From positions 4,106 to 68,105 of the IMG/VR virus record IMGVR_UViG_3300044470_000123: DNA of 64,000 nt; one strand, written 5' to 3'. Position 1 is the first letter of the stretch; every line of letters begins with the position of its first letter. The notes under the pieces were generated by a model. The model searched no databases. It saw only the letters and a list, made by a program, of their open reading frames with translations, and was not told the DNA's origin. The position numbers and the translations under genes are program-made. This document shows positions 1,618 through 55,397 of the stretch, in pieces. This DNA comes from a virus.

Positions 1618-2751
1618 TTACAGATTAATGAACTTAGCTACATCTGTATACCCATTTGCATTAAATACCCTTAGCTTTACTAGATATTGACCATGTAAGG
1701 GAAAAGTATATATAATATTCTGTATATTATAAACCTCTCCTCGATCATCTCCATAAGACCCATCATAGTTTACCCACCAAGTCCAAGCTATAGGACTGTA
1801 AGTAGAAATATCTTTAAAATGTATAGTGAGAGGATTTAATAGATCTACAGTATATGTAAAATCAGCTTTAGGTTTTTGTGTAAATTTTACCCACGCTGAT
1901 ATAGTTCCTGTATAACCATTCCCAAAATTAAGAAACTCATTCCTTCTATAAGATGATAACCCTCCTCCATATACTACATTATGGCAGTTATCCACAGGTC
2001 CTGGTTCTACTGTAAAATAAGAAGCAGGACTTCCATCAGGATTCATACCAGAGTAGCTATAGAAACAGTCTCTTTCATACATAGAAAAATCAGTTTGATA
2101 TCTAGCATCTGTTTTAAACTTTAAATATAGTAATAGATTACTATCAGGATAAACCCCTGTCTCTCCTTGAGTCCCTGTAATACCTTGGGGACTTATACCC
2201 GTAATACCCTCCAACCCTTGAGCTCCTTGCACTCCTGTATCCCCTTGTGCTCCTACTAAACCTGTGCATCCGAAGGCTCCTGTGCATCCTAGATCCCCCT
2301 TTAGCCCTGTATCACCTTGAGTAAAAGTGTCAGTTATAGTAAAAGTGGACATCTGTGAGTATTCATTATAACTCACTATTTCAAAACTATTTTGTATTTG
2401 ATGTAATATAAATTGGGCTACTGGCAAGGCATTAGGGATAGCATCTGCAGTATATTTTGTTACATACGTGTCAAGGACTACTACGTTATCAAAAACAAAT
2501 TTCCCGTATTCTACATCATAATAAACATTAACTACTGCATATTTATCTAAATCTTCAGGAAGATTAAAAAAAACTTGTCCTTTAAAGGGAATCTGCAGTC
2601 TATTTAGTGCTAAAAATGAGTTATTATATAGGATAGTACCAAAATCTACAGAATATATTTTTTCTCCTGTAATACCTTGATTTATCCCTGTAACTCCTAC
2701 ATTAGTATAAGTTACTGATATAGAATTACTTTTAGAAAGGACTTGATCCAT
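1618..2751 (-). CDS. Collagen-repeat fibre protein with LamG-like and PKD-like C-terminal parts
   Basis: G-X-Y run ([13 protein letters not shown]...GETG), TISAWVK motif, terminal [17 protein letters not shown]. Confidence 0.7.
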
Positions 2752-5700
2752 TAGATTCTCACAGTAGGATAATTAACCAATCTATAAACTGCTATAGCTG
2801 TATTGTCCGTTTCAAAATACCCAGGAGTATACTCTGTATCATCGTCTTCAAACATACCTGACATATTCTCAGTACGAGCAGTAAACATCTTTGAGAAAAT
2901 AATAAGTACTATCTCTCCTCTTACTACAGGACTGATTAGATCGGATCTTACTCTACCTAATACAGGGAAAAATACTTTTCTAGGCACAGGAGATACTAGA
3001 CGCTCTGTTTGATATTTAAAAGTATCATCACAAGCTGTATAATAAGCTCTTCCTAGCCTGTCTCCTATATTATTGGGGCTAGAAAGTGTTATATCTTCTC
3101 CTAACTTCCTAGATAGATATGCTGGTAGCTTTATTAAACCAGTATCTATACTAAAATTAGGGAACTCTAGATCTACTATATTAGTAAAGATATTATCAGT
3201 TACAAAGGTAGTGTCATTCACAGGGATATGATCTATAGGATTTTCATATGGATCCTTCTTAATTTTATTGCTCCCACCTGTACCTAAATTAGAGACATAT
3301 AGAAAATCTGAACTTGTTAACACTTCTACAGTTAATTCTGAAGGAAGATTATCTATAGCCTGATAGGGTCTATATTTATAAAAAACATATGCCTCAGAAG
3401 TAGCAGATGCTCCTGAAAACTGGGTCTGCTTAACTAACATCGGTACATATATAGTGCCATCACTTATAGATACTCTATTATCAAAATATATAAACACAGT
3501 ACTTGTTCCTAGGTTTATAGTATTTTGAACAGGGATAGTATGAAAATATAGATCACTATTGCTCTTATACCACACATATGATTGGTATGTAACTTCTTTA
3601 GTACCATATGAGCTTAATCCTAGTATTATACCGTTAGTTATATCACCGTCATTATTTGGTGTAGGATTAGTTAAGTCTACTTCTATATACTTTGCCCCAG
3701 ATAGAATAGGGGTATTATATAAAACAGACTTATATAGACCTATTATACCTTTTGATCCCACATTAAAATCTGTAACATTAGGAGCTCTATAAGCCTGAAT
3801 ATTGGGTCCTATATTAGCCTGTGTAAAACCTAATATAGTAGCAGTAGTAGATAAAGAAGGAACTACTTCTAGTATAACTTCTATCACAGCATTTTTTGGT
3901 ATAGTAAAAGCTTTGTCTATGTTTATAGTTATGCTACTATTATCGTACCCTCCACCGCTTAAAGGAGACTCGCTCCAGACAGTATTATTGTTAACATAGT
4001 CTGTAGATATTAAGTACTGAGCTCCTGTCTTAGCATCAGTTATACTTTTAACATTAAATACGGTGTAATTATTAACATTTTTTGGTATTTGTAATACATT
4101 TATATAGTCAGTAGCCTGCATAAAATAATGATATTCTATGAGGGAGCCTTTAAATTGCTGTCCTTTGAACTTAATCAAAGATCTAGGATAGTCTAGTGAA
4201 CTTTCTACATAATTATTCGTGCTCTGATACAGATAGATATCATCTTGATTAGTACCTATCTCTATAGCAGAATAGAAATCTGTGTAGTCTTTATACCCAG
4301 GGACTCTTTCTTCTAAATATTCTATAGACAGGTTCTCTGTGTTTTCATTTATACCTCTATAGAAAACACTATTATCCTCTACATCAGGTACATATTTTAT
4401 ACCTAAAGGCTCATTGGGGACTCTACTTAAACCATCTTTAGTATAGTCTATCCTATTAGCATGTATAACATAAGTTTCACCTGGATCTGGAGAATATGAC
4501 CCTATATTAAATATTATAGTGTTAGTCCCTAAACCAGAGAAAGTACCGGGGATAGTTTTAGAGGTCTCTGCTCCGTTTATTTTAGATACCACTTTATGAT
4601 ATGAAGGGTCAGTTAAATATATACTATCTAAAGTAGGTCCTAAAGTAAAATCAGATGTAGCTAAAGGTGTAATACCATTAGGGTCAAGCTCTTTAATATC
4701 CTCTGCTATAACTGCTTCAGAAGTCACTAAACCACTTATAAGATTATTAAGATCGCTGATCCCTATATAAGTATCTGCTAATAGGATAGAAGTACCGTAT
4801 TGAGTACCACTTTCATCTCTTGTGCTTAATTTAGTACCAAGTCTATTTCCTAAAAGCTTATCAAAATTCTTTTCCATTAAAGCCGTATAGGACTGTATAT
4901 TTACTTTTTTTCTAAGGTCTATAACTTCTGAAGCATCTATCTCTTCATAGGTAAGCCCGTCAGGTCTTACCGCATTAAGACTATAGATAGTAGATCCATT
5001 TATATTAGTATTAGGATCGAAAGGAGAAGAGTTCCTACGTGTAACCATAAACATAGGTATAGCCCAGACCCAGCCATCATAAGTATTCCTACAGTGCGCT
5101 TTCCATAGACCGTAGTCACCATTCTCTTGCCCCATATTAGAAAATGTATAAGACCCTGCATCAGTAGTATCATCATTAGGACCTAAACTATAAACATACT
5201 CTGCCCCCATGCCTGCTTCAGGATAAGTAAAAGGGTCTATACCTGTAGCTACTCTTACACTGTACTGGATCTGTACCCTGTCAGATGTTTCTACCCCTAC
5301 CTGAGGATCTATTATATCATCCTCAAGAAAAGTATCTGCCTGTGATAAAATATTACCCTCAGGATATATCCTACCTTTTGTTTTTAAAGGAAGATCTGTA
5401 TCTTGTACTTCAAAATTTGTAGGTATGTCTAAAGGATCATAAAGTAAAATACTACCATCTGATCCTGATATCCAACCATAGTTATCGCTTGTAAAATAGA
5501 TATCATACAAATCAAATCCTAAAGGATTAGTTATAACTTCCCATTTAGACCCACTATTACTAGTTTTAAGTACTAGTCCATCATTACCTACTATCCAGGC
5601 TTTATCTTCTACAGAAAAACTAATATCTGTAGTACCATTATTGGATATTATACCATTACTGGGTCTAAAATCAGAAGGTTGTAAAGCGCTGGCATAAGAG

Positions 5701-37718: not shown

Positions 37719-39119
37719 TTATATGATATATTGTATAGATAATTTAAATATTGATTTTGTATGAAATACTTTTTTTACTGATTTTTTAATATTAAAATCA
37801 ATTTTATTTATCCCGTTAAAACAACGAACAGATCTTCCACAATGATGACTACCATTAACCACATATTTTTTACTGTTAATTGTAACTGTATCGTAAGGCT
37901 GTATAGAATATCTATGCCTTCTAATAGATGGTTTAAAACCTTTCCTATTTAACTGTATTATTCTATTATTTTTATGTTTTTGCTTAAAATATGTAGGATT
38001 AATTCTAATCTGATTAGTACCTCCTGCTATAACAAATGCATCATTATAATGGGTCTTTTCTAATCCTAACTCATTCCTATTAACAAAAGTCTCATATCCG
38101 TAAACTATCTTACAGTTTGGTAATATTTTTTTATATATGTGTTGAACTATTGTCATAAACGCAGCGTCTTTATATTGTTTATTCCTCTTAAGAGTGTCAA
38201 ATAATTTATTTTTATGAAGTTTATCATGACATTTTTCATGCAATAAAGCTAAATTATCTTGCTTATTAGGGCCACCTTTAGATCTAGGTATAATGTGATG
38301 TATATGAGAGGAATTACCTTTACTAAACTCTTTATTACATAGCTGGCACTTTCCTTTTTCTCTGGCCATCAAATAAATTCTCATGTTTTGATACTCATAC
38401 ATGGGTCCTTGTTGGTACTCTAATTTAGTTATTTTTTGATTTTCTATTTTCTGGATATCAAAATTTCCTACCTCTATAGTTATATCTTCCTCATTTATAG
38501 GAAATCTTAATCTCAGTTTATTGATAAAATTTATATGAGTGTTAAACTTCCTTTTAATTGATGGGGCTAACCAACCTTTTGTTCTGGCGTTAGATCTATT
38601 GTTGTGTCTAGCCTCTCTATACCACATCTTATCTCTACGTCCACCTCGATACATACTTTTACTTATTAATCTTTCAGGAGTTTTCTGATCCAAATAAACT
38701 TCTCCTGTAATTATCTCTTCATCTTTAGTTATAACAGAAAATCCTATCTTCTTAGAGCCTGAGTCTATTCCAAAAGAATACTTCTTAACAGTTTCTCCTG
38801 TAGCCTTATTAAGTTGAATAGTAAAGAATAACCCGTTTTCTACGACATGTGCCTCTCCTTTTTTAAGTAGCTTTCTAGCCTTGCAGGGACTGCAAGGCTC
38901 AAGAGGTTTACCCCTCTTATTGAGTACACAAACTTTGGCAAATACCCTCAGGTCTTGCCCCTCTTTGTGTTGAGGTGGATCCACTTCGAGATTGTTTAAA
39001 GTCAGTACTTTGCTCGCCACACTGAGACTTTCGTCTCTGTTTAATGGCATGCTTGTAGAGCTACAGACTTGTGGAGCATCCGTAGGTACGTACTTTAACT
39101 TTCCTTTAAACTGCTGCAT
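37719..39119 (-). CDS. iscB: IscB RNA-guided endonuclease (IS200/IS605 OMEGA)
   Basis: PLMP-like KPLEPCSPCKARKLLK; RuvC-I GIDSG; Arg-rich bridge helix; RuvC-II IEVGNFD; HNH CQLC..HIHHIIPRSKGG..NL..H..CH; RuvC-III THYNDA. Confidence 0.95.
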   Translation of the reverse strand: MQQFKGKLKYVPTDAPQVCSSTSMPLNRDESLSVASKVLTLNNLEVDPPQHKEGQDLRVFAKVCVLNKRGKPLEPCSPCKARKLLKKGEAHVVENGLFFTIQLNKATGETVKKYSFGIDSGSKKIGFSVITKDEEIITGEVYLDQKTPERLISKSMYRGGRRDKMWYREARHNNRSNARTKGWLAPSIKRKFNTHINFINKLRLRFPINEEDITIEVGNFDIQKIENQKITKLEYQQGPMYEYQNMRIYLMAREKGKCQLCNKEFSKGNSSHIHHIIPRSKGGPNKQDNLALLHEKCHDKLHKNKLFDTLKRNKQYKDAAFMTIVQHIYKKILPNCKIVYGYETFVNRNELGLEKTHYNDAFVIAGGTNQIRINPTYFKQKHKNNRIIQLNRKGFKPSIRRHRYSIQPYDTVTINSKKYVVNGSHHCGRSVRCFNGINKIDFNIKKSVKKVFHTKSIFKLSIQYII

Positions 39120-39208
39120 AAAAGTTTACCTTTTAAGCCCTCTAATCAACTCTTACCCAGAACCTCACGGTTCTAACCATTTTAGATACTTTTAAAGTGG
39201 CAATTGAC
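38945..39208 (-). ncRNA. IscB omegaRNA (HEARO-like) scaffold
   Basis: Starts GTCAATTGCC, pairing with GGTAAGAGTTGAT; GNRA hairpins AGAACC-GTGA-GGTTCT and GAGAC-GAAA-GTCTC; CTACGGA-TGCTCCACAAG-TCTGTAG hairpin whose loop TCCAC can pair with GTGGA; TAAACAG and AACAATCTCGAAG blocks. 3' end approximate. Confidence 0.85.
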
Positions 39209-39394
39209 ATGGGAGGTGTTGACATTATAAAAAAACTAATAATAAACTAAGAAAGAATAGTTTCCAGAAGAAAATAGAAGATTAAAATTTTATATTTTAT
39301 TATATAAAAAATATAAGATATGATATTTTATATGAATTTTACTGGAAAACTTTTCATTTCACAATACCTAAATTTTCACATTAACTATTAAAAC

Positions 39395-41292: not shown

Positions 41293-44238
41293 TTAAAGAC
41301 TCTGACTAAGATTCAAGGTCACGATGATCCAGTTCAACGGATATACGGGACTATAGAAAACTTCTACATCAAGCGTCGAAGGATCAGCCTGGTCTACCAC
41401 TACCCTGATCCCCTTAAAGTCCACTATAATCTTATTGTTCTTAAGAGACTGAAAATAAGACTTCAAAGTATTAGTAACCTGTGGTATAATACTAGGCAAA
41501 TTCTTCTGACCTATATACTGATCAAGAGCCTGCCTAACACCCTGCTGAACGAAATGCTTAACCTCAACTATACGAGGATCTCTTGTAAGGATATTACTCA
41601 AATCAGAAGTTAGATACATCCTAATCTTAATCGATGTGGCTAAATCCTGAAGAACAGTACATCCTGAGTTCGCTACAAGCGCAGCAGTAACATCATCCAA
41701 CCTACGATATAACCTGTCAAAGCCTACTACGTTTTTATTAGTAAGAGGTGTAGCTATATCATAAACAGGATCACAGTCTAACCCTGCTACAGCCGCCGCT
41801 ATAAATGACCCATCAACAAGATACTGAACATCATTACCAAAAGCATCAGGTATAGTCAATAAAGCAGCCTCAGGATAGATAGGGGTAATCTTCTCTGATC
41901 CTATAGCCTTACACTGCTGGATCGCTGCCTCTGGAGAAGTACCAAAAGCAAATCCTATTACACTTGTACGCTCATTACGATATTTGATGCTACTCTGTAT
42001 CGCATTAGAAGTAGATAGATAACCCTGCACCGCAGGACTTGTAGTCATAGGCTGCATAAGCGAAGGCCTTGTCCCATCAGAAAGAGGCTCATTAAAAGTA
42101 TCTATAGCATCAAAATAACTCTGATCTGGAGCGTCTGTACCACCAGAAGCTCTCTTTACCTGTAGAAGAGCTACTGACCTTGCACCATTAAGGAAAGCTA
42201 GGTTAGCCCCTAGTACTATCTTATTAGTAATATCTAAAGGACCAAAATCTGTAAAAATATCTCTCATGTTATTGTAAGACTTTACTGTGTAGTCTGTCTT
42301 AGTCTTATCAAAAGTTACATAGTAAGTGTCCCCAACATTAGGCTCATTACCTGACTTATTAAAAGTCTGAAGGATAACTGTGTCACCTGTATTATCCTGT
42401 GCACCACCAGCAGTACTATCTATAGTAAGATTGATACCAGGTATCGCTTTTACTACAAAAGAAGTAGCAAACTCCCATGTCTGTGAGATCATAGGATCAA
42501 GAGGAATACCTACAATATAAACTACCTTCTGACCTGTAGTAGGATTATAACCATCTATAGCAGCTTTAAAAGACACTCTGAAACTTGTTACAGAGTCTAT
42601 ATAAGTCTGACCCTGAAAACCAAGATTAGTAGCACCGGTACCCGTCTTACCTGTACCTGTAACAGCAAAACCACCCACACCATCAAAAGTCACTGTTACA
42701 GTCTCAACAGATGCTGTCAAAGGATCTATCTGTACATTCACAGCTCCAGACCCTGCATAAACAGGAGCTACCGTACTACCTGTACCAAGAGTAACATCTA
42801 ACGCTGTCCCACTAAACTTAGAAGTAAGTAAATAACGACCTACCCCAGCAGCACCAGGAAGCTCATTAGTAATAGTCCATGTATCGTCTATGATCAAATT
42901 TTCATAGTAAGTCACATAAACACTATCATGCGAAGCAGTGGTCCCTTGTGCAGGAGCTAATTCTAAAGTTATATTGTTACCGTTTATCTGTGTAACTAGC
43001 ACTGGACCCGCAGAGTAAGCTGCATCCCATGAAGTACCTACATAAGCTACTATATTAGCAGGATCCTCTGTAGGAGTACCTGTACCTACACCATCCACAG
43101 GTGTGGAAGGTAGAGTAAATACTGTGTTACCTGAAGCATTAAGAGGAAAACCATCTGTACCTATAATATTTACATTGCCACTCTGTGCTATAGAATAAGG
43201 AGTAGATATCCTACCATATACCTTAGTATCTGTAAGAGAAGCTATTACATTATTTATAAGAGGCGTAGAACCAGCAGTATAGATACCCGTAGAAGTCTCA
43301 TAAGATGTACCCCAGTGTAACTCATTAGAACCCGCAAGAACTACATCCTGACCTATAGAGTAATCTGAAGTATCTGCACTTAGTCCAACTTTAACTATGT
43401 CATTAACTTCTGCAGCAGGAAGAATATCAAAAGTGTCCTGCCAAGTATTTGTGAAATATGTAACTGTTACCGTGGCTCCATTAACAGGAGGAGTAGCAAA
43501 CGTGAAAATACCGTGTGCTCCATCCAAAGCTATAATGGGAGTAATAACATTGTTAACTTTTACTTGAATAACTGGAACAGTTTTTGTATACTCATTACCT
43601 GGAGTTAGAGGAGTAGGATTATAAAGGATACTTACTGTATTATTTATGTCTGCATCTGTAGCTGACTGACCACCATTATTACCCTTAACTATCCTTAAAC
43701 TTCTAACTTTAAAATTTACTGCATTACCATCAGCCTGAAAAGAAAGATCTTCATTCTCTATGTAAGTATCCATCCTCTTAAAATAATAATTGACTTCAAC
43801 ATCATCTGTTGCAAGAGGGATGTCTACAAGAGTGACCGTACCAAGTAAACCGTTTATAGCGTTCACCGCTACTTGACTACCGTTTACTAAAACTATAACC
43901 TGACTTGGTAGCGTCGCTACTTTGCCTGTGCCTGATCCCGTTACTAGAGGGAAGTTGGCTACTCTAAACTGATTAGAGATACCCTGTAATCCACCGATCC
44001 AACCTGGAGTAGTACTAGTTAAAGACTCTCCTACTACTTCTTCACCAAGAATAATATTGTCAGATATAGCGGAAGATCCACGGATCATACCAAAATTGGA
44101 TATACGGATCTGCTCAAAACCTACTCCAATTATAGCTGGAAAACGAACATTACCTGCAGCTGATGCTCCAGATGTCTGAGAGATGGTCTGTGTAAAAACC
44201 CCAGGGAATACGAAGGATTCTAAAGGTCCTATTGGCAT
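41293..44238 (-). CDS. Contractile tail sheath protein
   Basis: N-terminal FPGVFT...PAIIG; C-terminal FIAAAVAG..PLTNKNVVGF...VEVFYSPVYPLNWIIVT. Confidence 0.92.
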   Translation of the reverse strand: MPIGPLESFVFPGVFTQTISQTSGASAAGNVRFPAIIGVGFEQIRISNFGMIRGSSAISDNIILGEEVVGESLTSTTPGWIGGLQGISNQFRVANFPLVTGSGTGKVATLPSQVIVLVNGSQVAVNAINGLLGTVTLVDIPLATDDVEVNYYFKRMDTYIENEDLSFQADGNAVNFKVRSLRIVKGNNGGQSATDADINNTVSILYNPTPLTPGNEYTKTVPVIQVKVNNVITPIIALDGAHGIFTFATPPVNGATVTVTYFTNTWQDTFDILPAAEVNDIVKVGLSADTSDYSIGQDVVLAGSNELHWGTSYETSTGIYTAGSTPLINNVIASLTDTKVYGRISTPYSIAQSGNVNIIGTDGFPLNASGNTVFTLPSTPVDGVGTGTPTEDPANIVAYVGTSWDAAYSAGPVLVTQINGNNITLELAPAQGTTASHDSVYVTYYENLIIDDTWTITNELPGAAGVGRYLLTSKFSGTALDVTLGTGSTVAPVYAGSGAVNVQIDPLTASVETVTVTFDGVGGFAVTGTGKTGTGATNLGFQGQTYIDSVTSFRVSFKAAIDGYNPTTGQKVVYIVGIPLDPMISQTWEFATSFVVKAIPGINLTIDSTAGGAQDNTGDTVILQTFNKSGNEPNVGDTYYVTFDKTKTDYTVKSYNNMRDIFTDFGPLDITNKIVLGANLAFLNGARSVALLQVKRASGGTDAPDQSYFDAIDTFNEPLSDGTRPSLMQPMTTSPAVQGYLSTSNAIQSSIKYRNERTSVIGFAFGTSPEAAIQQCKAIGSEKITPIYPEAALLTIPDAFGNDVQYLVDGSFIAAAVAGLDCDPVYDIATPLTNKNVVGFDRLYRRLDDVTAALVANSGCTVLQDLATSIKIRMYLTSDLSNILTRDPRIVEVKHFVQQGVRQALDQYIGQKNLPSIIPQVTNTLKSYFQSLKNNKIIVDFKGIRVVVDQADPSTLDVEVFYSPVYPLNWIIVTLNLSQSL

Positions 44239-44374
44239 TTTAAATCTCCTTTATAAGCAATCTTTTTAAAATCTTAAGTTATTTATTTCTTATCTGTATC
44301 TTATATAAGGCCGATTTAACTTACACTTAATGGCCAATGGATTTTATATGATATCTATCATGTTATAAAGATAT

Positions 44375-44389
44375 TATTAAAAGGTTATT
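44375..44389 (-). promoter_or_regulatory. Putative late promoter motif AATAACCTTTTAATA
   Basis: Identical to the copy at 44934-44948; upstream of the sheath gene. Confidence 0.65.
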
Positions 44390-46486: not shown

Positions 46487-48637
46487 TTACCGTTTTAGTA
46501 TGTTAGCAGTTAAAATTTCTGTAATATTTTTAATTTCTTTATATGAAATTCTTAATAAAGGTATATTATTCTTTAAACAATATTCGTTTTTTAAAGAATC
46601 GTTATATTTTTGAATTTCAAATGCTTCTACAATTTCTTCTTCAGATAAATCTCTATTAAATCTAGTTGGCTTATAATGTATAATTCCGTCATATTCACAA
46701 AGTAGATTTATACTAGGTATATAAAAATCAAATCTTAAAGGAATCTTTTTTCTAAAACCTTTTAAATCGTGAAATGAATATTGCGGTTTAAATTCAACAT
46801 TATTAAATATTAACCAATCTATTATGGTTATTTCTCCTAAAGAAGAACTGCACATATTACAACCGTACCCTAATAAGTGATATTGCGGGGCTTGCCAAAA
46901 TTCCCCATGCTTTTTACATATTATGCAAATTTTTAATTTACTGCTAACATATTTTACTTTCGTATACTCATATCTGTCTCCATGAGTATCTTTAGATTTT
47001 AAAATAAACTCTTCTGTAGTTGTAGTTCTTTTTTCAAGAGAACTTAGTTTACCACAAACAGGACAACCTGTACCGCGTGTGTGGGTACGGGGTATCTGCC
47101 AAAACTCTCCGTGTATTCTACATATGATACATACTTTTATTTTAGTTTTAATATATTCTACTTTTGAGTAATCGTATCTATCTCCATGAATTACTTTAGC
47201 TTTTATAATAAATTCTTCTTTTATACTAACTCTTTTTTTAGCTGCTTTTAAATGTCCGCAAATAATACATCCATAACCTTGTAAATGTCCTAGTGGTACT
47301 TAGTAAAACTCACCATGCTTTCTACAGATAATACAAACAGGAGTGTGCATATCAATATATTCTACTTTTGAGTAATCATATTCTCCTTTAAAATGTACTT
47401 TTTCAGCTCTGGTAATAAACTCTGAACTAGTAAGACTGTTATTTTCATAAGCACAAGCGTTGCATCCATATTTTTGCAAATGAAGTGTTGGTGTTTGAAA
47501 AAAATCTCCATGTTTTTTACATGTTATACAAACTTTTTTATTTGTTTTAATGTAATCTACTTTTGAATAAATATAGGTATCTTTACCGTGTATAATTTTT
47601 GATTTTTTTATAAACTCCTCTGTATTTGAAGAATTTACAGAAGAAATTATCTCTAAAGCACATTTTTGGCAACCTCTTCCGTTTAGGTGTGAATCTGCTT
47701 TCTGCCAAAATTCACCGTGTTTTTCACATAATATACAAATTTTTGACTTACTGCCAGTATAGTTTGTTTTTAAATAAGTATACCTATTTTTATGTACTTT
47801 TTTTGCTTTTTCTATATACTCTTCTGTAGTTACTGTACTATCTACCCTAACACATACGGGACAATCTTGACCGGACAAATGATTACCAGGAGTTTGCAAA
47901 AACTCTCCGTGAATAAGACATCTTATACAGACTTTCTTATCAGATCCTATATAATTTACTTTACTATATTCATATCTATTACCGTGAACTATTGTAGCTT
48001 TTTTTATAAATTTTTCTTTAGCATCTAAAATCCTTCTATTACTGTATTCCTCTGTAGCACACCTAAAGCATCCATTTTTATTTAAATGACTACTAGGGCA
48101 CTGCATAAATTCTCCATGTACCTTACATATAATACAAACTTTATCTACAGTATTAATATAAACTACTTTATCATAGATATATCTATCTCCGTGCACACTT
48201 ATTGCTTTACTTATAAATTCTCCTGTTGTCATTGTTCTAGTTTTACTACCATCTATAGGACATCCGCTACCATTCAAATGATTTGAAGGAATCTGCATAA
48301 ATTCACCGTGCTTTTTACATACTATACAAACCGGTACAAAACTACCATAATATTTAACTTTTGAATAATCGTACTTATTTCCATGAATAGAAATAGCTTC
48401 CTTTATAAAATCATTTTTTGTCTTCATTTTTTTAATACTTCTATTATTTATATCACATTTTTTACATTTAGAACCTACTAAATGACTGTACGGGGCTTGT
48501 AAAAAATCTCCGTGTATTCTACATGTAATTATTATTTTTATACAGGCTCCTAAATATTCTACTTTATCATAAATATACCTATCCCCGTGTTTAGCTCTTG
48601 CTCTTTCTATAAATTTTTCAGTCGTAAATTTTTGCAT
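46487..48637 (-). pseudogene. Homing-endonuclease-like gene: 9 DUF723-like Zn-finger repeats plus a C-terminal PD-(D/E)XK nuclease, interrupted by one in-frame TAA (47300-47302)
   Basis: ORFs 47300-48637 and 46487-46855 share a frame. The 148 intervening codons are open and finish repeat 7 and encode two more repeats. The TAA sits where all other repeats have Gln (HGEFxQ). Nuclease motif LRFDFYIP..LLCEYDGIIHY. Confidence 0.85.
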
Positions 48638-48665
48638 ACCTTCTTCTCCTACAAAAATAAAAACA

Positions 48666-48808
48666 AGCCAAGTCGATGAGGGAAATCACCTACAAAAACA
48701 ACAGCCTTACGGGTACTGTTACTTTTGACTCTTGGCTCTATTATTCATATTCTTTTTGATCCGTAAGTTAAAAGATAGTACACGAGGTTTCCCTGCCCCG
48801 TATACTAT
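48666..48808 (-). ncRNA. Structured leader RNA with two predicted kissing-loop interactions
   Basis: Four hairpins plus a closing stem; loops GGGAAA/TTTCCC and CTTACGG/CCGTAAG are exactly complementary; stem mismatches are G-U only on the minus strand. Confidence 0.6.
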
Positions 48809-48817
48809 AGGAAATAA

Positions 48818-48832
48818 TATTAGAAGGTTATT
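48818..48832 (-). promoter_or_regulatory. Putative late promoter motif AATAACCTTCTAATA
   Basis: Recurrent motif directly upstream of the structured leader. Confidence 0.65.
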
Positions 48833-48850
48833 ACAGCTGATAGGAATAAC

Positions 48851-48880
48851 AAAAGAACTTTCATTGCTGAAAGTTCTTTT
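48851..48880. terminator. Bidirectional intrinsic terminator
   Basis: Perfect 13-bp stem AAAAGAACTTTCA-TTGC-TGAAAGTTCTTTT downstream of the actin operon. Confidence 0.7.
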
Positions 48881-48972
48881 AAAATATTATATAACTACTA
48901 TATAAATCAATAACTTAATTAAAATATATAATTTTTATCCTTTAAAGACTTAATCTTTTTACTAAATCTCAT

Positions 48973-49725
48973 TTATTCACCCTTTGTTACTTTATACTTG
49001 CAAGTACCGTCGCCCCATATCCCGGTAGCTCCGCATATGGTATTACTACAAGGTACATAGAATTTATAGGTCCAAGGACTTTTGGTAGCCTGCCCTCTAT
49101 AGTTACATATTACTGTACTATCATTATTAGCCCTTTTGGGACAATAAGATATATCTAAACTTGCGGGTAGCTCTGTAGTTCCTGCACAGCACACAGGTCC
49201 TATTGTGCCTCCTATACTAGGAGTAGCTGCACATCCTGTGATCTCTGTTAACTCTTTTTTATCTTCCTTAGCTTTTTTTAATATAGCACAGTCTCTATCG
49301 AACTCTCCGCTTTCTATATATTTATTGTGTTCTGCTATACTGTGTTTTTCTATAGCCTTTTCTAGCTTAACTTGATCTAAATTTAAATTCTTATCTTTAC
49401 CTTTAAACCACATTTTAGTAACTAAAAAATATATTATTTCATTTAGTTTATCCTTATCTAATTCTAATAGAGGATTTAAAAATTCAGGTATATTTCCTTC
49501 TTTTATTTCTAAAGAGGTTTTTTGTAGTATGTACTCTACGATAAATATCATTTCTTTTGGAAAATAGAGTGGTATAGTGTTGCCAGGACACCAGTCTGGT
49601 GCAGAATTTTTTTCTGGATCAACACATCCATCAAAAGAAGCATATTTACATTCTGACCAACGTATACCGCAGGCCCCTGTTTCCATAGGACCATTACATT
49701 CATTACATTTAAAAAGTCCTGACAT
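48973..49725 (-). CDS. Cys-rich hypothetical protein
   Basis: Cys clusters at both ends; shares a 19-aa motif with 50802-51911. Confidence 0.6.
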   Translation of the reverse strand: MSGLFKCNECNGPMETGACGIRWSECKYASFDGCVDPEKNSAPDWCPGNTIPLYFPKEMIFIVEYILQKTSLEIKEGNIPEFLNPLLELDKDKLNEIIYFLVTKMWFKGKDKNLNLDQVKLEKAIEKHSIAEHNKYIESGEFDRDCAILKKAKEDKKELTEITGCAATPSIGGTIGPVCCAGTTELPASLDISYCPKRANNDSTVICNYRGQATKSPWTYKFYVPCSNTICGATGIWGDGTCKYKVTKGE

Positions 49726-53972: not shown

Positions 53973-55334
53973 TTACATTACAATATTTTCAAACGTAGGG
54001 GTCCTGCCTTTAACCTGGTACTGTTCAGGGATCCCAGGCTTATCATTAATAACAGGACTAGCATCCGTAGGTCTTGGCCCCCTATATGCATTCCATGAGG
54101 GAGGTACCGAAGTCTCTCCACCAGTTATAGGTACAGTATATCTAACATCGTGCTGAGGCAACTGAGCTAGCTCAAAATGCTGCTGATATATAGCCCCTCT
54201 AGACCCTTGTGCATTTATATGATCCACAGAAAATCTATCATTATTTTGACGTACTATAAAATCACGAGATGTGAGAAGAGGGTAAGGTCCAGTCCACGTA
54301 CTCCAATTATAATTTACTCTAAGTCCTACATCTCCAAGATTTACTATCTTGTCTGTTTCAGGAGGTGCTACTATTATATCTATAGGACCTTCATACCCCC
54401 CTACATAGAAAGTTCCTTTACAAACCGTATCATCCTCTTTCCCCTGCCTATACTGCTCATCCCAACAAGTACACCTGATCCCACTCCACTTCCTAACGAA
54501 TAACTTTACCCTTTCTCCACCCTCCTCAAGGATCCACCTATTCCTACGGATAGCCTCAGCCCATATCCAGTCTATCTTCTCTATATCATACGGACTAAAC
54601 GCTTCTACCTGCTCCAAAGGAGTCTCCATAGTAACATCAGTACACCCTGTCTTATAAGCTACCGTAGAAACTTTATAGTATATCTTCCTAAATATGTCAG
54701 TCTGTATCAAATTATTCACATAAGTATAACTTATCCTTATCTCTCCACCTTTAGACAAATCTGGTAGGATAGGATCATCTAACCTATTAGTCTTGTTGTT
54801 GTATATCTTAGAACTTATTAAAAATATCTCTCCATCCTCACCCACCACTCTAAAAGCTGGTACAGTAATAAACTGATCAGCTGCCGTCTTCTTGATGTCT
54901 ACTCTAACATAAGTTGGATTGTTGGCTATAGTCCCATTAGACCCAGGTATAACTATAGGAGTATTATAAGTCTTTGCTACCCATAGTCCATTCGCTGTAG
55001 TACCTGGGATAAGCCTTCCACCCTGCACAGGATCCTCTGTAACATACTGTTCAGTAGTCTGGTCCCTGTAGTATGGGATACCTATAGGGATCGTGTTTAA
55101 CTTGGTGTAAGGACCTTCAGGAGAGTCATAGGACTTATATACATTCACTCCAAGGACATATAGACTGTTATTTTCAGCATACGTAGCAGGATTATCCCAT
55201 CGGACATCGATGATACCTATAAGATAAGGACTTGTCACATTCACATTACGAGGAGCTAATGGTAGCGATGGAGGCGTGTCATCCCCAGACCTGTAAGGTA
55301 AAGGGAAGTCGGGACGATTGTAGTTGTAGATCAT
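53973..55334 (-). CDS. Putative neck/head-closure protein with FN3-like N-terminus
   Basis: APRNVNV..IDVRWD..GVNVYKS (FN3); C-terminal GGERVKLF...RCTCWD...CKGTFYVGGY typical of large-phage neck proteins. Confidence 0.55.
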   Translation of the reverse strand: MIYNYNRPDFPLPYRSGDDTPPSLPLAPRNVNVTSPYLIGIIDVRWDNPATYAENNSLYVLGVNVYKSYDSPEGPYTKLNTIPIGIPYYRDQTTEQYVTEDPVQGGRLIPGTTANGLWVAKTYNTPIVIPGSNGTIANNPTYVRVDIKKTAADQFITVPAFRVVGEDGEIFLISSKIYNNKTNRLDDPILPDLSKGGEIRISYTYVNNLIQTDIFRKIYYKVSTVAYKTGCTDVTMETPLEQVEAFSPYDIEKIDWIWAEAIRRNRWILEEGGERVKLFVRKWSGIRCTCWDEQYRQGKEDDTVCKGTFYVGGYEGPIDIIVAPPETDKIVNLGDVGLRVNYNWSTWTGPYPLLTSRDFIVRQNNDRFSVDHINAQGSRGAIYQQHFELAQLPQHDVRYTVPITGGETSVPPSWNAYRGPRPTDASPVINDKPGIPEQYQVKGRTPTFENIVM

Positions 55335-55382
55335 CTAAAAACTATCCTAGTAAGATTAGATGTTATCCTACTAGGATAGTTT

Positions 55383-55397
55383 TATTAGAAGATTATT
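55383..55397 (-). promoter_or_regulatory. Putative late promoter motif AATAATCTTCTAATA
   Basis: Recurrent motif upstream of 55334. Confidence 0.6.

What the first reader, a model, noticed from the sequence alone, without database searches (positions are those of the whole stretch)
48666..48808. Double kissing-loop RNA leading a multi-Zn-finger endonuclease: candidate new RNA-nuclease system
Seen (minus strand, between the late motif at 48818 and ATG 48637): H1 ATAGTATACGGGG-[CAGGGAAA]-CCTCGTGTACTAT; H2 CTTTT-[AACTTACGGATCA]-AAAAG; then stem AGCCAAG..GTC/GACTTGGCT enclosing H4 AACAGT-[ACCCGTAAG]-GCTGTT and H5 GGTGA-[TTTCCC]-TCATC. Loop H1 (GGGAAA) complements loop H5 (TTTCCC), and loop H2 (CTTACGG) complements loop H4 (CCGTAAG). 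Stem mismatches are G-U only on this strand, which favours RNA over DNA cruciforms. TTTTTGTAGG occurs before H5 and again at the RBS. I recognise no RNA family with this topology. Inference: a compact tertiary RNA acting as a translational switch, ribozyme, oligomerising RNA (pRNA-like hand-in-hand) or nuclease cofactor travelling with this endonuclease family.
Basis: partly seen in the sequence, partly recalled or inferred. Interest (0 to 1): 0.85.

Follow-up and report, generated by a model that had tools for sequence, protein, structure and literature searches.

The report
Double kissing-loop leader of phage endonuclease
A compact folded RNA with two matching loop pairs sits in front of a selfish DNA-cutting-enzyme gene in this huge peat phage and one related phage, and most likely controls how much enzyme is made rather than working as the enzyme's partner.

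Summary
Every helix and both loop-loop complements are at 48666-48808(-). Two such disjoint loop matches arose in 2 of 200,000 random loop sets. No Rfam family matches.

A covariance model of this one sequence found one independent homolog, L211 (L212 is an identical copy), at 74.6 bits, E 2.7e-16. It sits in the same place: after a promoter-like box and before an intact 589-aa DUF723-repeat homing endonuclease. The L2:L4 kiss keeps pairing through two double changes. L1:L5 also stays complementary. The three-way-junction core is nearly invariant while the outer stems drift.

"Travels with the endonuclease family" is not supported. Two-sequence model R3 found no further match at E<=0.1 in 160 DUF723-repeat loci, 78 loci of the nearest nuclease domains and five related phage records; single-sequence model R1 found none in two more.

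Best reading: a lineage-restricted, cis-acting 5' leader that throttles the endonuclease. RBS sequestration could not be shown. The endonuclease here carries an in-frame TAA.

This scan has noted kissing-loop endonuclease leaders on other DNA; homology to them was not testable.

The parts
48850..48881 (-). Terminator-like hairpin with a U run, ending the upstream Cys-rich gene (48973-49725)
   Evidence: Terminator scan: 14 pairs plus tail. Sequence read.
48818..48832 (-). Promoter-like box AATAACCTTCTAATA, followed 8 nt later by TATAG, which runs into H1
   Evidence: AATANNCTTYTAATA occurs 6 times in the window against 0.06 expected, all on the minus strand and upstream of co-oriented ORFs. 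Boxes matching a looser form of the motif lie next to the 476-aa gene in 9 of 16 relatives' loci.
48775..48808 (-). H1: 13-bp hairpin with loop L1, CAGGGAAA (48788-48795)
   Evidence: Eight apical pairs are kept in L211, with one pair changed on both sides at the loop-closing position and three one-sided changes among G-C, G-U and A-U pairs.
48752..48774 (-). H2: weak 5-bp hairpin with 13-nt loop L2; CTTACGG at 48760-48766
   Evidence: In L211 the helix has 4 of 5 pairs. RNAalifold does not call it.
48738..48751 (-). A-rich 14-nt linker AATATGAATAATAG
   Evidence: 11 of 14 columns identical in L211.
48666..48737 (-). Three-way junction. P3 is 48731-48737 with 48666-48672. H4 is 48715-48727 with 48693-48705, loop L4 at 48706-48714. 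H5 is 48675-48690, loop L5 at 48680-48685.
   Evidence: MFE and consensus folds. P3 is invariant at 7 of 7 pairs. H4 has 3 pairs changed on both sides.
48652..48665 (-). U-rich tract TGTTTTTATTTTTG directly after P3
   Evidence: L211 has TTATTTTT at the same place.
48635..48650 (-). Shine-Dalgarno-like AGGAG and the ATG (48635-48637) of the endonuclease ORF
46487..48637 (-). Free-standing homing endonuclease gene. It has DUF723-type Zn-finger repeats (9 HGxF motifs when read through) and a C-terminal nuclease domain (46490-46834). One in-frame TAA lies at 47300-47302.
   Evidence: PHROG endonuclease families, E 4.7e-89 for the repeats and 1.2e-24 and 1.7e-23 for the nuclease domain. Contigs of runs X2 and X3 cover 47142-47463 and 47111-47359 with 0 differences from the window, so they carry the same TAA.

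Best explanation
This is a conserved, compactly folded, cis-acting 5' leader RNA of a free-standing homing endonuclease gene.

Proposed mechanism, with what is shown and what is inferred:
- Transcription starts at the phage's own promoter-like box just upstream (inferred).
- The first ~145 nt fold into a 5' hairpin (H1), a weak hairpin (H2), an A-rich linker and a three-way junction (P3/H4/H5) (supported by covariation).
- Loop L2 pairs with L4 and loop L1 pairs with L5, locking the 5' hairpins onto the junction domain (L2:L4 shown by covariation; L1:L5 consistent).
- The locked domain ends in the invariant stem P3, followed at once by a U tract and, 21-28 nt later, the start codon.
- My committed reading is that the fold limits how much endonuclease is made. 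It would do so mainly by making P3 plus the U tract act as an attenuator or terminator, or as a barrier in front of the ribosome-binding site. Only a fraction of late transcripts would then give protein (inferred).
- The nearly invariant junction and linker may be a docking site for a protein or ligand that tunes this (speculative).
For: Position: promoter-like box, then the RNA, then SD/ATG on the gene's strand. The leader is 181 nt from box to ATG, against 45-78 nt for four of the other five boxes.

Homolog: L211 (L212 is 100% identical over 13,458 nt) scores 74.6 bits, E 2.7e-16, with the single-sequence model. It lies in the same order: TATTCAT box, 9 nt, then TATAA running into H1, and the RNA ends 21 nt before the ATG of an intact 589-aa endonuclease.

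Structure: 97.1% of cells are paired and 8 pairs changed on both sides, against 0-1 when the partner is slid by 1-3 columns; 2 of 500 shuffles reach this.

L2:L4: A-U became G-C and C-G became U-A. Own-partner duplexes are -10.1 and -13.3 kcal/mol; swapped partners give -2.0 and -5.0. L1:L5: GGGAAA/UUUCCC became AGGAAA/UUUCCU.

Conservation: linker, P3 and junctions are 43 of 48 identical, against 47 of 85 in H1, H2 and mid-H4. The RNA is 76% identical, against 67-68% for the flanking coding DNA. No reading frame is open in both sequences.

Precedent: T-even homing endonuclease genes are held down by leader hairpins, terminators and late promoters (PMC2988022, passages read).
Against: There are only two independent sequences, so covariation rests on one comparison, and the alignment was fitted to the model.

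No expression data exist. The endonuclease in this window is interrupted by a TAA, so the leader here may be a relic.

RBS occlusion is not shown. Pairing of the translation start with the upstream flank or with H2 plus linker is no better than in shuffles (fractions 0.15, 0.52, 0.18, 0.58).

Three endonucleases of the same clade at the same site manage without the RNA.

A hairpin plus U5 also precedes an ordinary late gene at 55334-55397. This weakens the terminator reading of P3 plus the U tract.
Confidence: 0.6

Rival explanations
1. Sensor leader (riboswitch-like or protein-binding). The invariant three-way-junction core and linker bind a small molecule or a protein, possibly the endonuclease itself as an autoregulator. 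The kissing loops only scaffold that pocket. Binding switches expression on or off.
For: The core is 43 of 48 identical while the stems drift to 47 of 85. Peripheral loop-loop contacts that organise a junction pocket are known from purine riboswitches (recalled). I-TevI autorepression is described in PMC2988022 (passage seen).
Against: Two sequences cannot separate slow divergence from constraint. No alternative conformer scored better than chance. No Rfam riboswitch matches. The distribution is tiny.
Confidence: 0.15
It would be released as a ~165-nt RNA ending at the U tract.
For: P3 plus the U tract could give a discrete small RNA. Complementary loops in one molecule could also pair between molecules. 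An RNA lies in front of a nuclease elsewhere in this window: HEARO in front of IscB.
Against: Model R3 found no further match at E<=0.1 in 238 other loci of this endonuclease family, including three of the same clade at the same site. The protein has up to 9 Zn-finger repeats, which suit protein-based DNA recognition (inference). No guide-like variable segment is evident.
Confidence: 0.1
3. Self-cleaving or otherwise catalytic RNA.
For: Compact doubly pseudoknotted topology with an invariant junction.
Against: No match to any Rfam ribozyme, even at E<=10 over 701 nt. The junction strands are only 2-3 nt long.
Confidence: 0.03
4. DNA-level element (operator, cruciform or recombination site) or a chance cluster of inverted repeats.
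For: Dense inverted repeats lie next to a mobile gene.
Against: G-U pairs exist only on the sense strand, and the folds are -39.6 against -31.3 kcal/mol. Changes on both sides keep pairing. The chance of the double loop match is about 1e-5.
Confidence: 0.05

Closest known systems
Regulatory leader structures of T-even phage homing endonuclease genes (I-TevI, I-TevII, I-TevIII, segB, Aeh1 mobE); review PMC2988022, passages read
   Same: An RNA structure lies directly 5' of a free-standing or intron-borne phage homing endonuclease ORF. It is combined with a late-type promoter and terminator-like signals, and its accepted role is to keep nuclease expression low or late.
   Different: Those are single hairpins that bury the RBS. 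This is a 143-nt, five-helix domain with two loop-loop contacts. It ends 21-28 nt before the ATG, and RBS burial could not be shown.
'Kissing-loop leader RNAs of homing endonucleases' noted earlier in this scan (unpublished AI notes), and the analog I found at L045:1380-1479
   Same: The position is in front of a homing endonuclease gene and there is no Rfam match. The layout is hairpin, A-rich linker of 14-16 nt, long hairpin whose apical loop kisses the first hairpin, then a U tract. That layout is seen here in H2, linker, P3/H4 and in L045.
   Different: The notes describe multi-copy leaders in front of unrelated endonucleases, with one loop complementary to the RBS. This one is single-copy per genome, has a second kiss (L1:L5) and an extra branch, and no conserved loop-RBS match. 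Homology is not shown: model R2, built from L045, scores 9.6 bits (E 2.3) on this element, no better than other background matches in that search. R3 does not hit L045 or L262.
Guanidine-IV (mepA-motif) riboswitch (PMC7736828 and PMC11611296, seen as search listings and abstract starts only)
   Same: Two hairpins in a 5' leader whose loops kiss, next to a terminator-type expression platform.
   Different: As I recall, the loop nucleotides there are conserved and ligand-dependent; here the loops covary freely. No Rfam hit.
phi29 pRNA (Rfam family; features recalled)
   Same: A phage RNA with complementary loops in one molecule.
   Different: pRNA loops pair between molecules to build a packaging ring, and the RNA is not an mRNA leader. 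No Rfam match here.
HEARO / IscB omega-RNA
   Same: A structured RNA immediately 5' of a nuclease gene. A true HEARO lies in this same window at 38975-39223 (91.2 bits).
   Different: This element has no HEARO match. The nuclease is a Zn-finger-repeat homing endonuclease, not IscB or TnpB.

Membership tests
Any Rfam 15 family | Covariance-model match at the gathering score, or at least a suggestive E-value | tested here: not met
   Whole window at gathering score: only HEARO, elsewhere. Region 48400-49100 at E<=10: four weak hits, all at 48811-48893 on the terminator hairpin and none on the element.
T-even-type RBS-sequestering endonuclease leader | A stable structure buries the SD or start codon on read-through transcripts | tested here: inconclusive
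   In this window the read-through fold lowers mean P(unpaired) of -16..+3 from 0.40 to 0.09. In L211 the change is only 0.42 to 0.34. The duplex energies are not better than shuffles (fractions 0.15 and 0.52).
T-even-type RBS-sequestering endonuclease leader | A late-type promoter placed so that its transcript lacks the 5' arm of the structure | tested here: inconclusive
   A promoter-like box lies 8 nt before TATAG and H1 in both phages. No transcription start is mapped.
Scan's 'kissing-loop leader of homing endonucleases' (unpublished notes) | Sits directly 5' of a homing endonuclease ORF with covarying loop-loop pairing | tested here: met
Scan's 'kissing-loop leader of homing endonucleases' (unpublished notes) | One loop complementary to the gene's RBS | tested here: not met
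   Read by hand: L5 can form only 5 bp (one G-U) with GGAGA here and 4 bp in L211. There is no conserved match. The only computed tests used the upstream flank and H2 plus linker, not L5.
Scan's 'kissing-loop leader of homing endonucleases' (unpublished notes) | Several copies per genome in front of unrelated endonucleases | tested here: not met
   One copy in the window and one in L211's record. None in four related records, one of them 98% complete.
Scan's 'kissing-loop leader of homing endonucleases' (unpublished notes) | Match to that family's covariance model | not testable with these tools
My models do not connect this element to L045 or L262.
   With model R3, no match at E<=0.1 in 160 DUF723-repeat loci or 78 nuclease-domain loci other than the two sequences R3 was built from. 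Model R1 on the 80 viral loci: best E 0.9.
DUF723-repeat / Vsr-like homing endonuclease (the downstream gene) | Repeated treble-clef Zn-finger modules plus a C-terminal nuclease domain | tested here: met
   phrog_681 at E 4.7e-89. Relatives carry PF05265, PF14311 and some PF04480. The nuclease domain matches phrog_559 and phrog_9084 at E 1e-24 and 2e-23. Pfam itself names no domain above threshold in this copy.

The most novel reading that the evidence does not exclude
The element is the founding member of a new class of compact 'two-clasp' RNAs. Two covarying loop-loop contacts would clamp a 5' hairpin pair onto an invariant three-way junction to build a pocket that senses a phage or host signal, or binds the endonuclease itself. 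That would gate, or form a particle with, a selfish nuclease. This would make it a genuine RNA switch or RNP dedicated to homing-endonuclease control, not a passive structured leader.
Probability: 0.15. Interest if true: 0.8.

Novelty: new variant of a known kind. Interest (0 to 1): 0.5.

Why it matters
Homing endonucleases are dangerous to their carriers and are known to be tightly throttled in T-even phages by simple hairpins. This case shows that a huge environmental phage lineage uses a far more elaborate RNA for the same genomic job. It has five helices, two loop-loop clasps and an invariant junction, and covariation already supports one tertiary contact.

If the junction proves to be a sensor or protein dock, it would be a new regulatory RNA class. 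It would also be a compact natural double-kissing scaffold for RNA structural work.

Its narrow distribution is informative too. Such leaders seem to be invented or swapped locally, not inherited with the nuclease family.

Tried and rejected
1. Loop-sequence scan of IMG/VR (GGGAAA..CTTACGG..CCGTAAG): 19 stretches. None has TTTCCC downstream and local alignment scores are at most 20, so all are chance.

2. Conserved-core scans: apart from L211/L212's contigs, three stretches each. Models R1 and R3 reject them all.

3. blastn against GenBank phages with this element and with L211's: only a 41-nt hit on the terminator hairpin, and nothing, respectively.

4. Sequencing runs: no RNA holder listed. 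DNA contigs of X2 and X3 are identical where they cover the stretch, but no depth was recorded at 48662-48748, so no population variants could be read for the RNA.

5. Read-through RBS-sequestration model and an H2/linker-versus-start alternative conformer: not better than shuffles.

6. My idea of two equal pseudo-continuous helices (13+6+5 = 24 and 5+7+13 = 25 bp): not kept in L211, where H1 is 8 bp and H5 is 4 bp.

7. The TTTTTGTAGG repeat as a functional duplicate of the RBS: the second copy is absent in L211.

8. A small ORF from the AUG in the linker: 9 codons here and 2 in L211, so not conserved. An in-frame UUG in P3 exists in L211 only.

9. General enrichment of kissing hairpin pairs upstream of DUF723-type endonucleases (upstream versus coding control): 2 of 76 versus 0 of 76; 1 of 70 versus 2 of 70; 3 of 69, which is one element in three near-identical contigs, versus 2 of 69. 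There is no enrichment. Loci without at least about 220-250 nt of upstream sequence in the locus (4, 10 and 9 of them) were dropped before these counts.

10. A strict architecture descriptor found only this element and L045's in about 1 Mb of loci. R2, built from L045, does not significantly hit this element.

11. A Pfam or PDB name for the nuclease domain: none above threshold. The Vsr/PD-(D/E)XK label rests on relatives' annotations and on recall of the motif.

12. Paper searches: 'kissing loop' + 'homing endonuclease' + 'leader' gave 1 unrelated paper. I therefore found no published description, within that library only. Supplementary files were not consulted.

Full report
SETTING. The window is most of a 68-kb IMG/VR virus record estimated at 14% complete. 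It is a fragment of a huge phage. Its neighbours' proteins match 485-595-kb uncultured phage genomes, and near-identical DNA occurs in three peat-metagenome runs. Nearly all genes run on the minus strand.

The element lies between a terminator-like hairpin (48881-48850) that ends a Cys-rich 250-aa gene and the ATG at 48637 of a 445-codon ORF.

THE OBSERVATION. The minimum-free-energy fold of 48830-48630(-) reproduces H1, H2, the outer stem P3, H4 and H5. Its z-score is -4.0, and 0 of 200 shuffles fold as well. The sense strand folds 8 kcal/mol better than its complement, -39.6 against -31.3. This agrees with G-U pairs that would be A-C mismatches on the other strand.

L1 and L5 share a perfect 6-nt complement and L2 and L4 a perfect 7-nt complement; all other loop pairs share 3 nt or fewer. 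With loops of these lengths, two disjoint matches of at least 6 and 7 nt arose in 2 of 200,000 random loop sets and in 2 of 200,000 shuffles of the real loop letters. A single 6-nt kiss between weak hairpins is common background: 82 raw pairs on the minus strand and 50 on the plus strand of the window, overlapping variants included. The weight therefore lies on the double match between strong hairpins.

No Rfam family matches the element. The only gathering-score hit in the window is HEARO at 38975-39223. At E<=10 the four weak hits all fall on the terminator hairpin. ARAGORN finds no tRNA or tmRNA.

THE GENE BEHIND IT. The ORF encodes repeated treble-clef Zn-finger modules. It matches phrog_681 'endonuclease' at E 4.7e-89, and its relatives carry PF05265/DUF723 and PF14311. 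It stops at a TAA (47300-47302) that replaces the Q of the repeat motif HGEFxQxP. The frame then continues for 270 more codons through more repeats and a C-terminal nuclease domain to 46487. That domain matches PHROG 'homing endonuclease' families at E 1e-24 and 2e-23.

Low-coverage contigs from two other runs cover the place with 0 differences from the window, so the stop is not an assembly error. Large ORFs elsewhere in the window are open in code 11. The TAA is therefore most simply a nonsense mutation in a decaying homing endonuclease gene.

PROMOTER-LIKE BOX. AATANNCTTYTAATA occurs six times in the window against 0.06 expected. All six are on the minus strand, in gaps upstream of co-oriented genes, and each is followed 7-9 nt later by a TATA-like start region. 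One copy (48832-48818) sits 8 nt before TATAG, which is the start of H1. Four of the other five boxes lie 45-78 nt from their start codon; this one lies 181 nt away. The label 'late' and the start site itself are inferences.

DOES THE RNA TRAVEL WITH THE ENDONUCLEASE FAMILY? The family is enormous: more than 7,900 proteins at E<=1e-20, none more than about 50% identical. I collected three sets of loci:
- 80 DUF723-repeat loci from IMG/VR;
- 80 from JGI/ENA metagenomes;
- 78 further loci of the nearest nuclease domains.

The single-sequence model R1 found nothing better than E 0.9 in the 80 viral loci. The two-sequence model R3 found nothing at E<=0.1 in any of the 238 loci apart from the window itself.

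A structure-only test for any pair of hairpins with complementary loops in the 200-230 nt upstream of the start gave 2 of 76, 1 of 70 and 3 of 69 (the last being one element in three near-identical contigs). Coding controls gave 0 of 76, 2 of 70 and 2 of 69. Kissing leaders are therefore not a property of this endonuclease family.

THE HOMOLOG. The 476-aa gene just downstream has relatives at 36-59% identity in 16 IMG/VR loci. R1 hit two of them, L211 and L212, at 3963-4096 (74.6 bits, E 2.7e-16). The two loci are 100% identical over 13,458 nt, so they count as one independent sequence seen in two metagenomes.

There the RNA follows the actin-like gene's stop by 47 nt. It lies behind a box (TATTCAT, 9 nt, then TATAA) that recurs before that phage's own 476-aa gene. 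It ends 21 nt before the ATG (4118) of an intact 589-aa DUF723-repeat endonuclease.

The nuclease domain of the window's gene is closest to this one, at 52% over 115 aa. Next come endonucleases at the same hotspot in L217, L213 and L214 at 45-49%. All other proteins tested are at 40% or less. The gap between the actin-like gene and the 476-aa gene is thus a homing hotspot. Only the two closest endonucleases carry the RNA. L213, L214 and L217 have short or no leaders and no R3 match.

Whole-record searches found no second copy. R1 was run on two huge GenBank phages and a 178-kb IMG/VR record. R3 was run on five related records, one of them 98% complete.

COVARIATION. On the model-guided alignment A7, 97.1% of cells form standard pairs. 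Eight pairs changed on both sides, against 0-1 when partners are slid by 1-3 columns, and 2 of 500 column shuffles reach these values. The double changes are:
- H1: 2 (one at a doubtful basal column);
- H2: 1;
- H4: 3;
- the L2:L4 kiss: 2 (A-U became G-C and C-G became U-A, so CUUACGG/CCGUAAG becomes CUUGUGG/CCACAAG, extendable to 8 bp).

L1:L5 stays complementary through one change on each side and a one-base shift in register, from GGGAAA/UUUCCC to AGGAAA/UUUCCU. This is weaker evidence, because the swapped partners would still pair almost as well: -5.1 and -4.7 against -6.5 and -5.6 kcal/mol. For L2:L4 the swap costs 5-11 kcal/mol.

RNAalifold on the same alignment independently returns H1 (8 bp), P3, H4 and H5, but not H2. 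The L2 strand may therefore act more as a pseudoknot partner than as a hairpin loop.

These cautions apply: there are two sequences, one comparison, and an alignment fitted to the model.

CONSERVATION PATTERN. The linker, P3, the junction strands, the base of H4 and the 5' arm of H5 are 43 of 48 identical. H1, H2 and the middle of H4 are 47 of 85 identical. The RNA as a whole is 76% identical, against 67-68% for the flanking coding DNA. All six frames carry stops in at least one of the two sequences. The core looks constrained in sequence and the periphery in pairing.

MECHANISM. Shown:
- the position in the leader of the endonuclease mRNA strand;
- a fold with at least one covarying tertiary contact;
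- an invariant P3 followed directly by a U tract in both phages.

Not shown: how it acts. I tested the T4-style model, in which read-through transcripts bury the RBS and promoter-initiated ones do not. In this window the start region is less accessible in the read-through fold (0.09 against 0.40). In L211 the difference is small (0.34 against 0.42), and neither long-range duplex beats shuffles (fractions 0.15 and 0.52). An alternative conformer pairing H2 and the linker with the start region is also at chance level (0.18 and 0.58). The repeat of TTTTTGTAGG at the RBS is not conserved.

I therefore commit, at moderate confidence, to a cis-acting throttle. The clasped domain would present P3 plus the U tract as an attenuator or barrier just ahead of the ribosome-binding site. 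One point weakens the terminator reading: a plain hairpin plus U5 also precedes an ordinary late gene in this window. A sensor role for the invariant junction and a trans role for a released ~165-nt RNA remain open.

COMPARISON WITH KNOWN THINGS. The closest published kind is the set of regulatory hairpins, terminators and late promoters of T-even homing endonuclease genes (PMC2988022, passages read). The genomic job is the same, but the RNA here is much more elaborate and RBS burial is unproven.

Earlier notes of this scan describe kissing-loop, often three-way-junction, leaders in front of homing endonucleases: 78 notes in at least 54 genomes. These are unchecked AI notes. I could not obtain their models. 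The features they stress, a loop matching the RBS and several copies per genome, are not met here.

Independently, I found one architectural analog in front of another DUF723 endonuclease. L045:1380-1479 has a hairpin, a 14-nt A-rich linker, a long hairpin, a 7-nt kiss and a U tract. My models do not connect the two, so I claim analogy, not homology.

Guanidine-IV, pRNA and HEARO share single traits only, and none matches in Rfam.

VERDICT. This is a real, Rfam-absent, structured leader RNA with two loop-loop clasps, one of them backed by compensatory change. It is known from two related huge phages and tied to one small clade of homing endonucleases at one hotspot. It is a new and unusually elaborate variant of the known theme of endonuclease leader control. 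On present evidence it is not a new RNA-nuclease system.

Noticed in passing
window 37719-39223 (-): A full-length HEARO RNA (RF02033, 91.2 bits against a gathering score of 83) lies at 38975-39223.
   Followed up: no
window 47300-47302 (-): A single in-frame TAA interrupts the endonuclease, replacing the Q of the HGEFxQxP repeat motif. Contigs of runs X2 and X3 cover the place with 0 differences from the window, and it lies in the contig of X1, the likely source run. It leaves a 445-aa Zn-finger array without its nuclease domain.
   Followed up: partly
L211-L224 (relatives), gap between the actin-like gene and the 476-aa gene: This gap is a homing hotspot. Different DUF723/nuclease endonucleases (385-598 aa) occupy it in L211/L212, L213, L214 and L217. 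It is empty (terminator plus promoter box only) in L215, L216, L218, L219 and L220. Contigs L209 and L210 begin inside an endonuclease 3' end.
   Followed up: partly
L221:3779-5878: The actin-like gene is 699 aa here instead of about 336. The insert looks like an intein with a LAGLIDADG-type endonuclease: it begins at a Cys and ends in HN followed by Cys.
   Followed up: no
L045:1380-1479 (+): Another DUF723 endonuclease has its own leader: a 6-bp hairpin, a 14-nt A-rich linker, a long two-part hairpin, a 7-nt loop-loop complement (CATCTAC/GTAGATG) and a U tract. It has no sequence similarity to the window's element.
   Followed up: partly
L262, L264, L265: about 2585-2672 (+): A terminator-like hairpin ahead of an endonuclease ORF has an 8-nt loop stretch (CTCCCTGT) complementary to the gene's SD region (ACAGGGAG). 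This is the loop-versus-RBS design described in earlier notes of this scan.
   Followed up: no
window 55334-55397 (-): The leader of an ordinary late gene (453 aa) is a 12-bp hairpin followed by TTTTT and then the ATG 2 nt later, with no obvious SD. Hairpin plus U run may be a general late-leader feature in this phage.
   Followed up: no
window 44238-44389 (-): This is the second unusually long leader: 137 nt from the promoter-like box to the ATG of the 981-aa gene. It has a possible 6-nt loop-loop match (GTGTAA/TTACAC) that may be chance.
   Followed up: no
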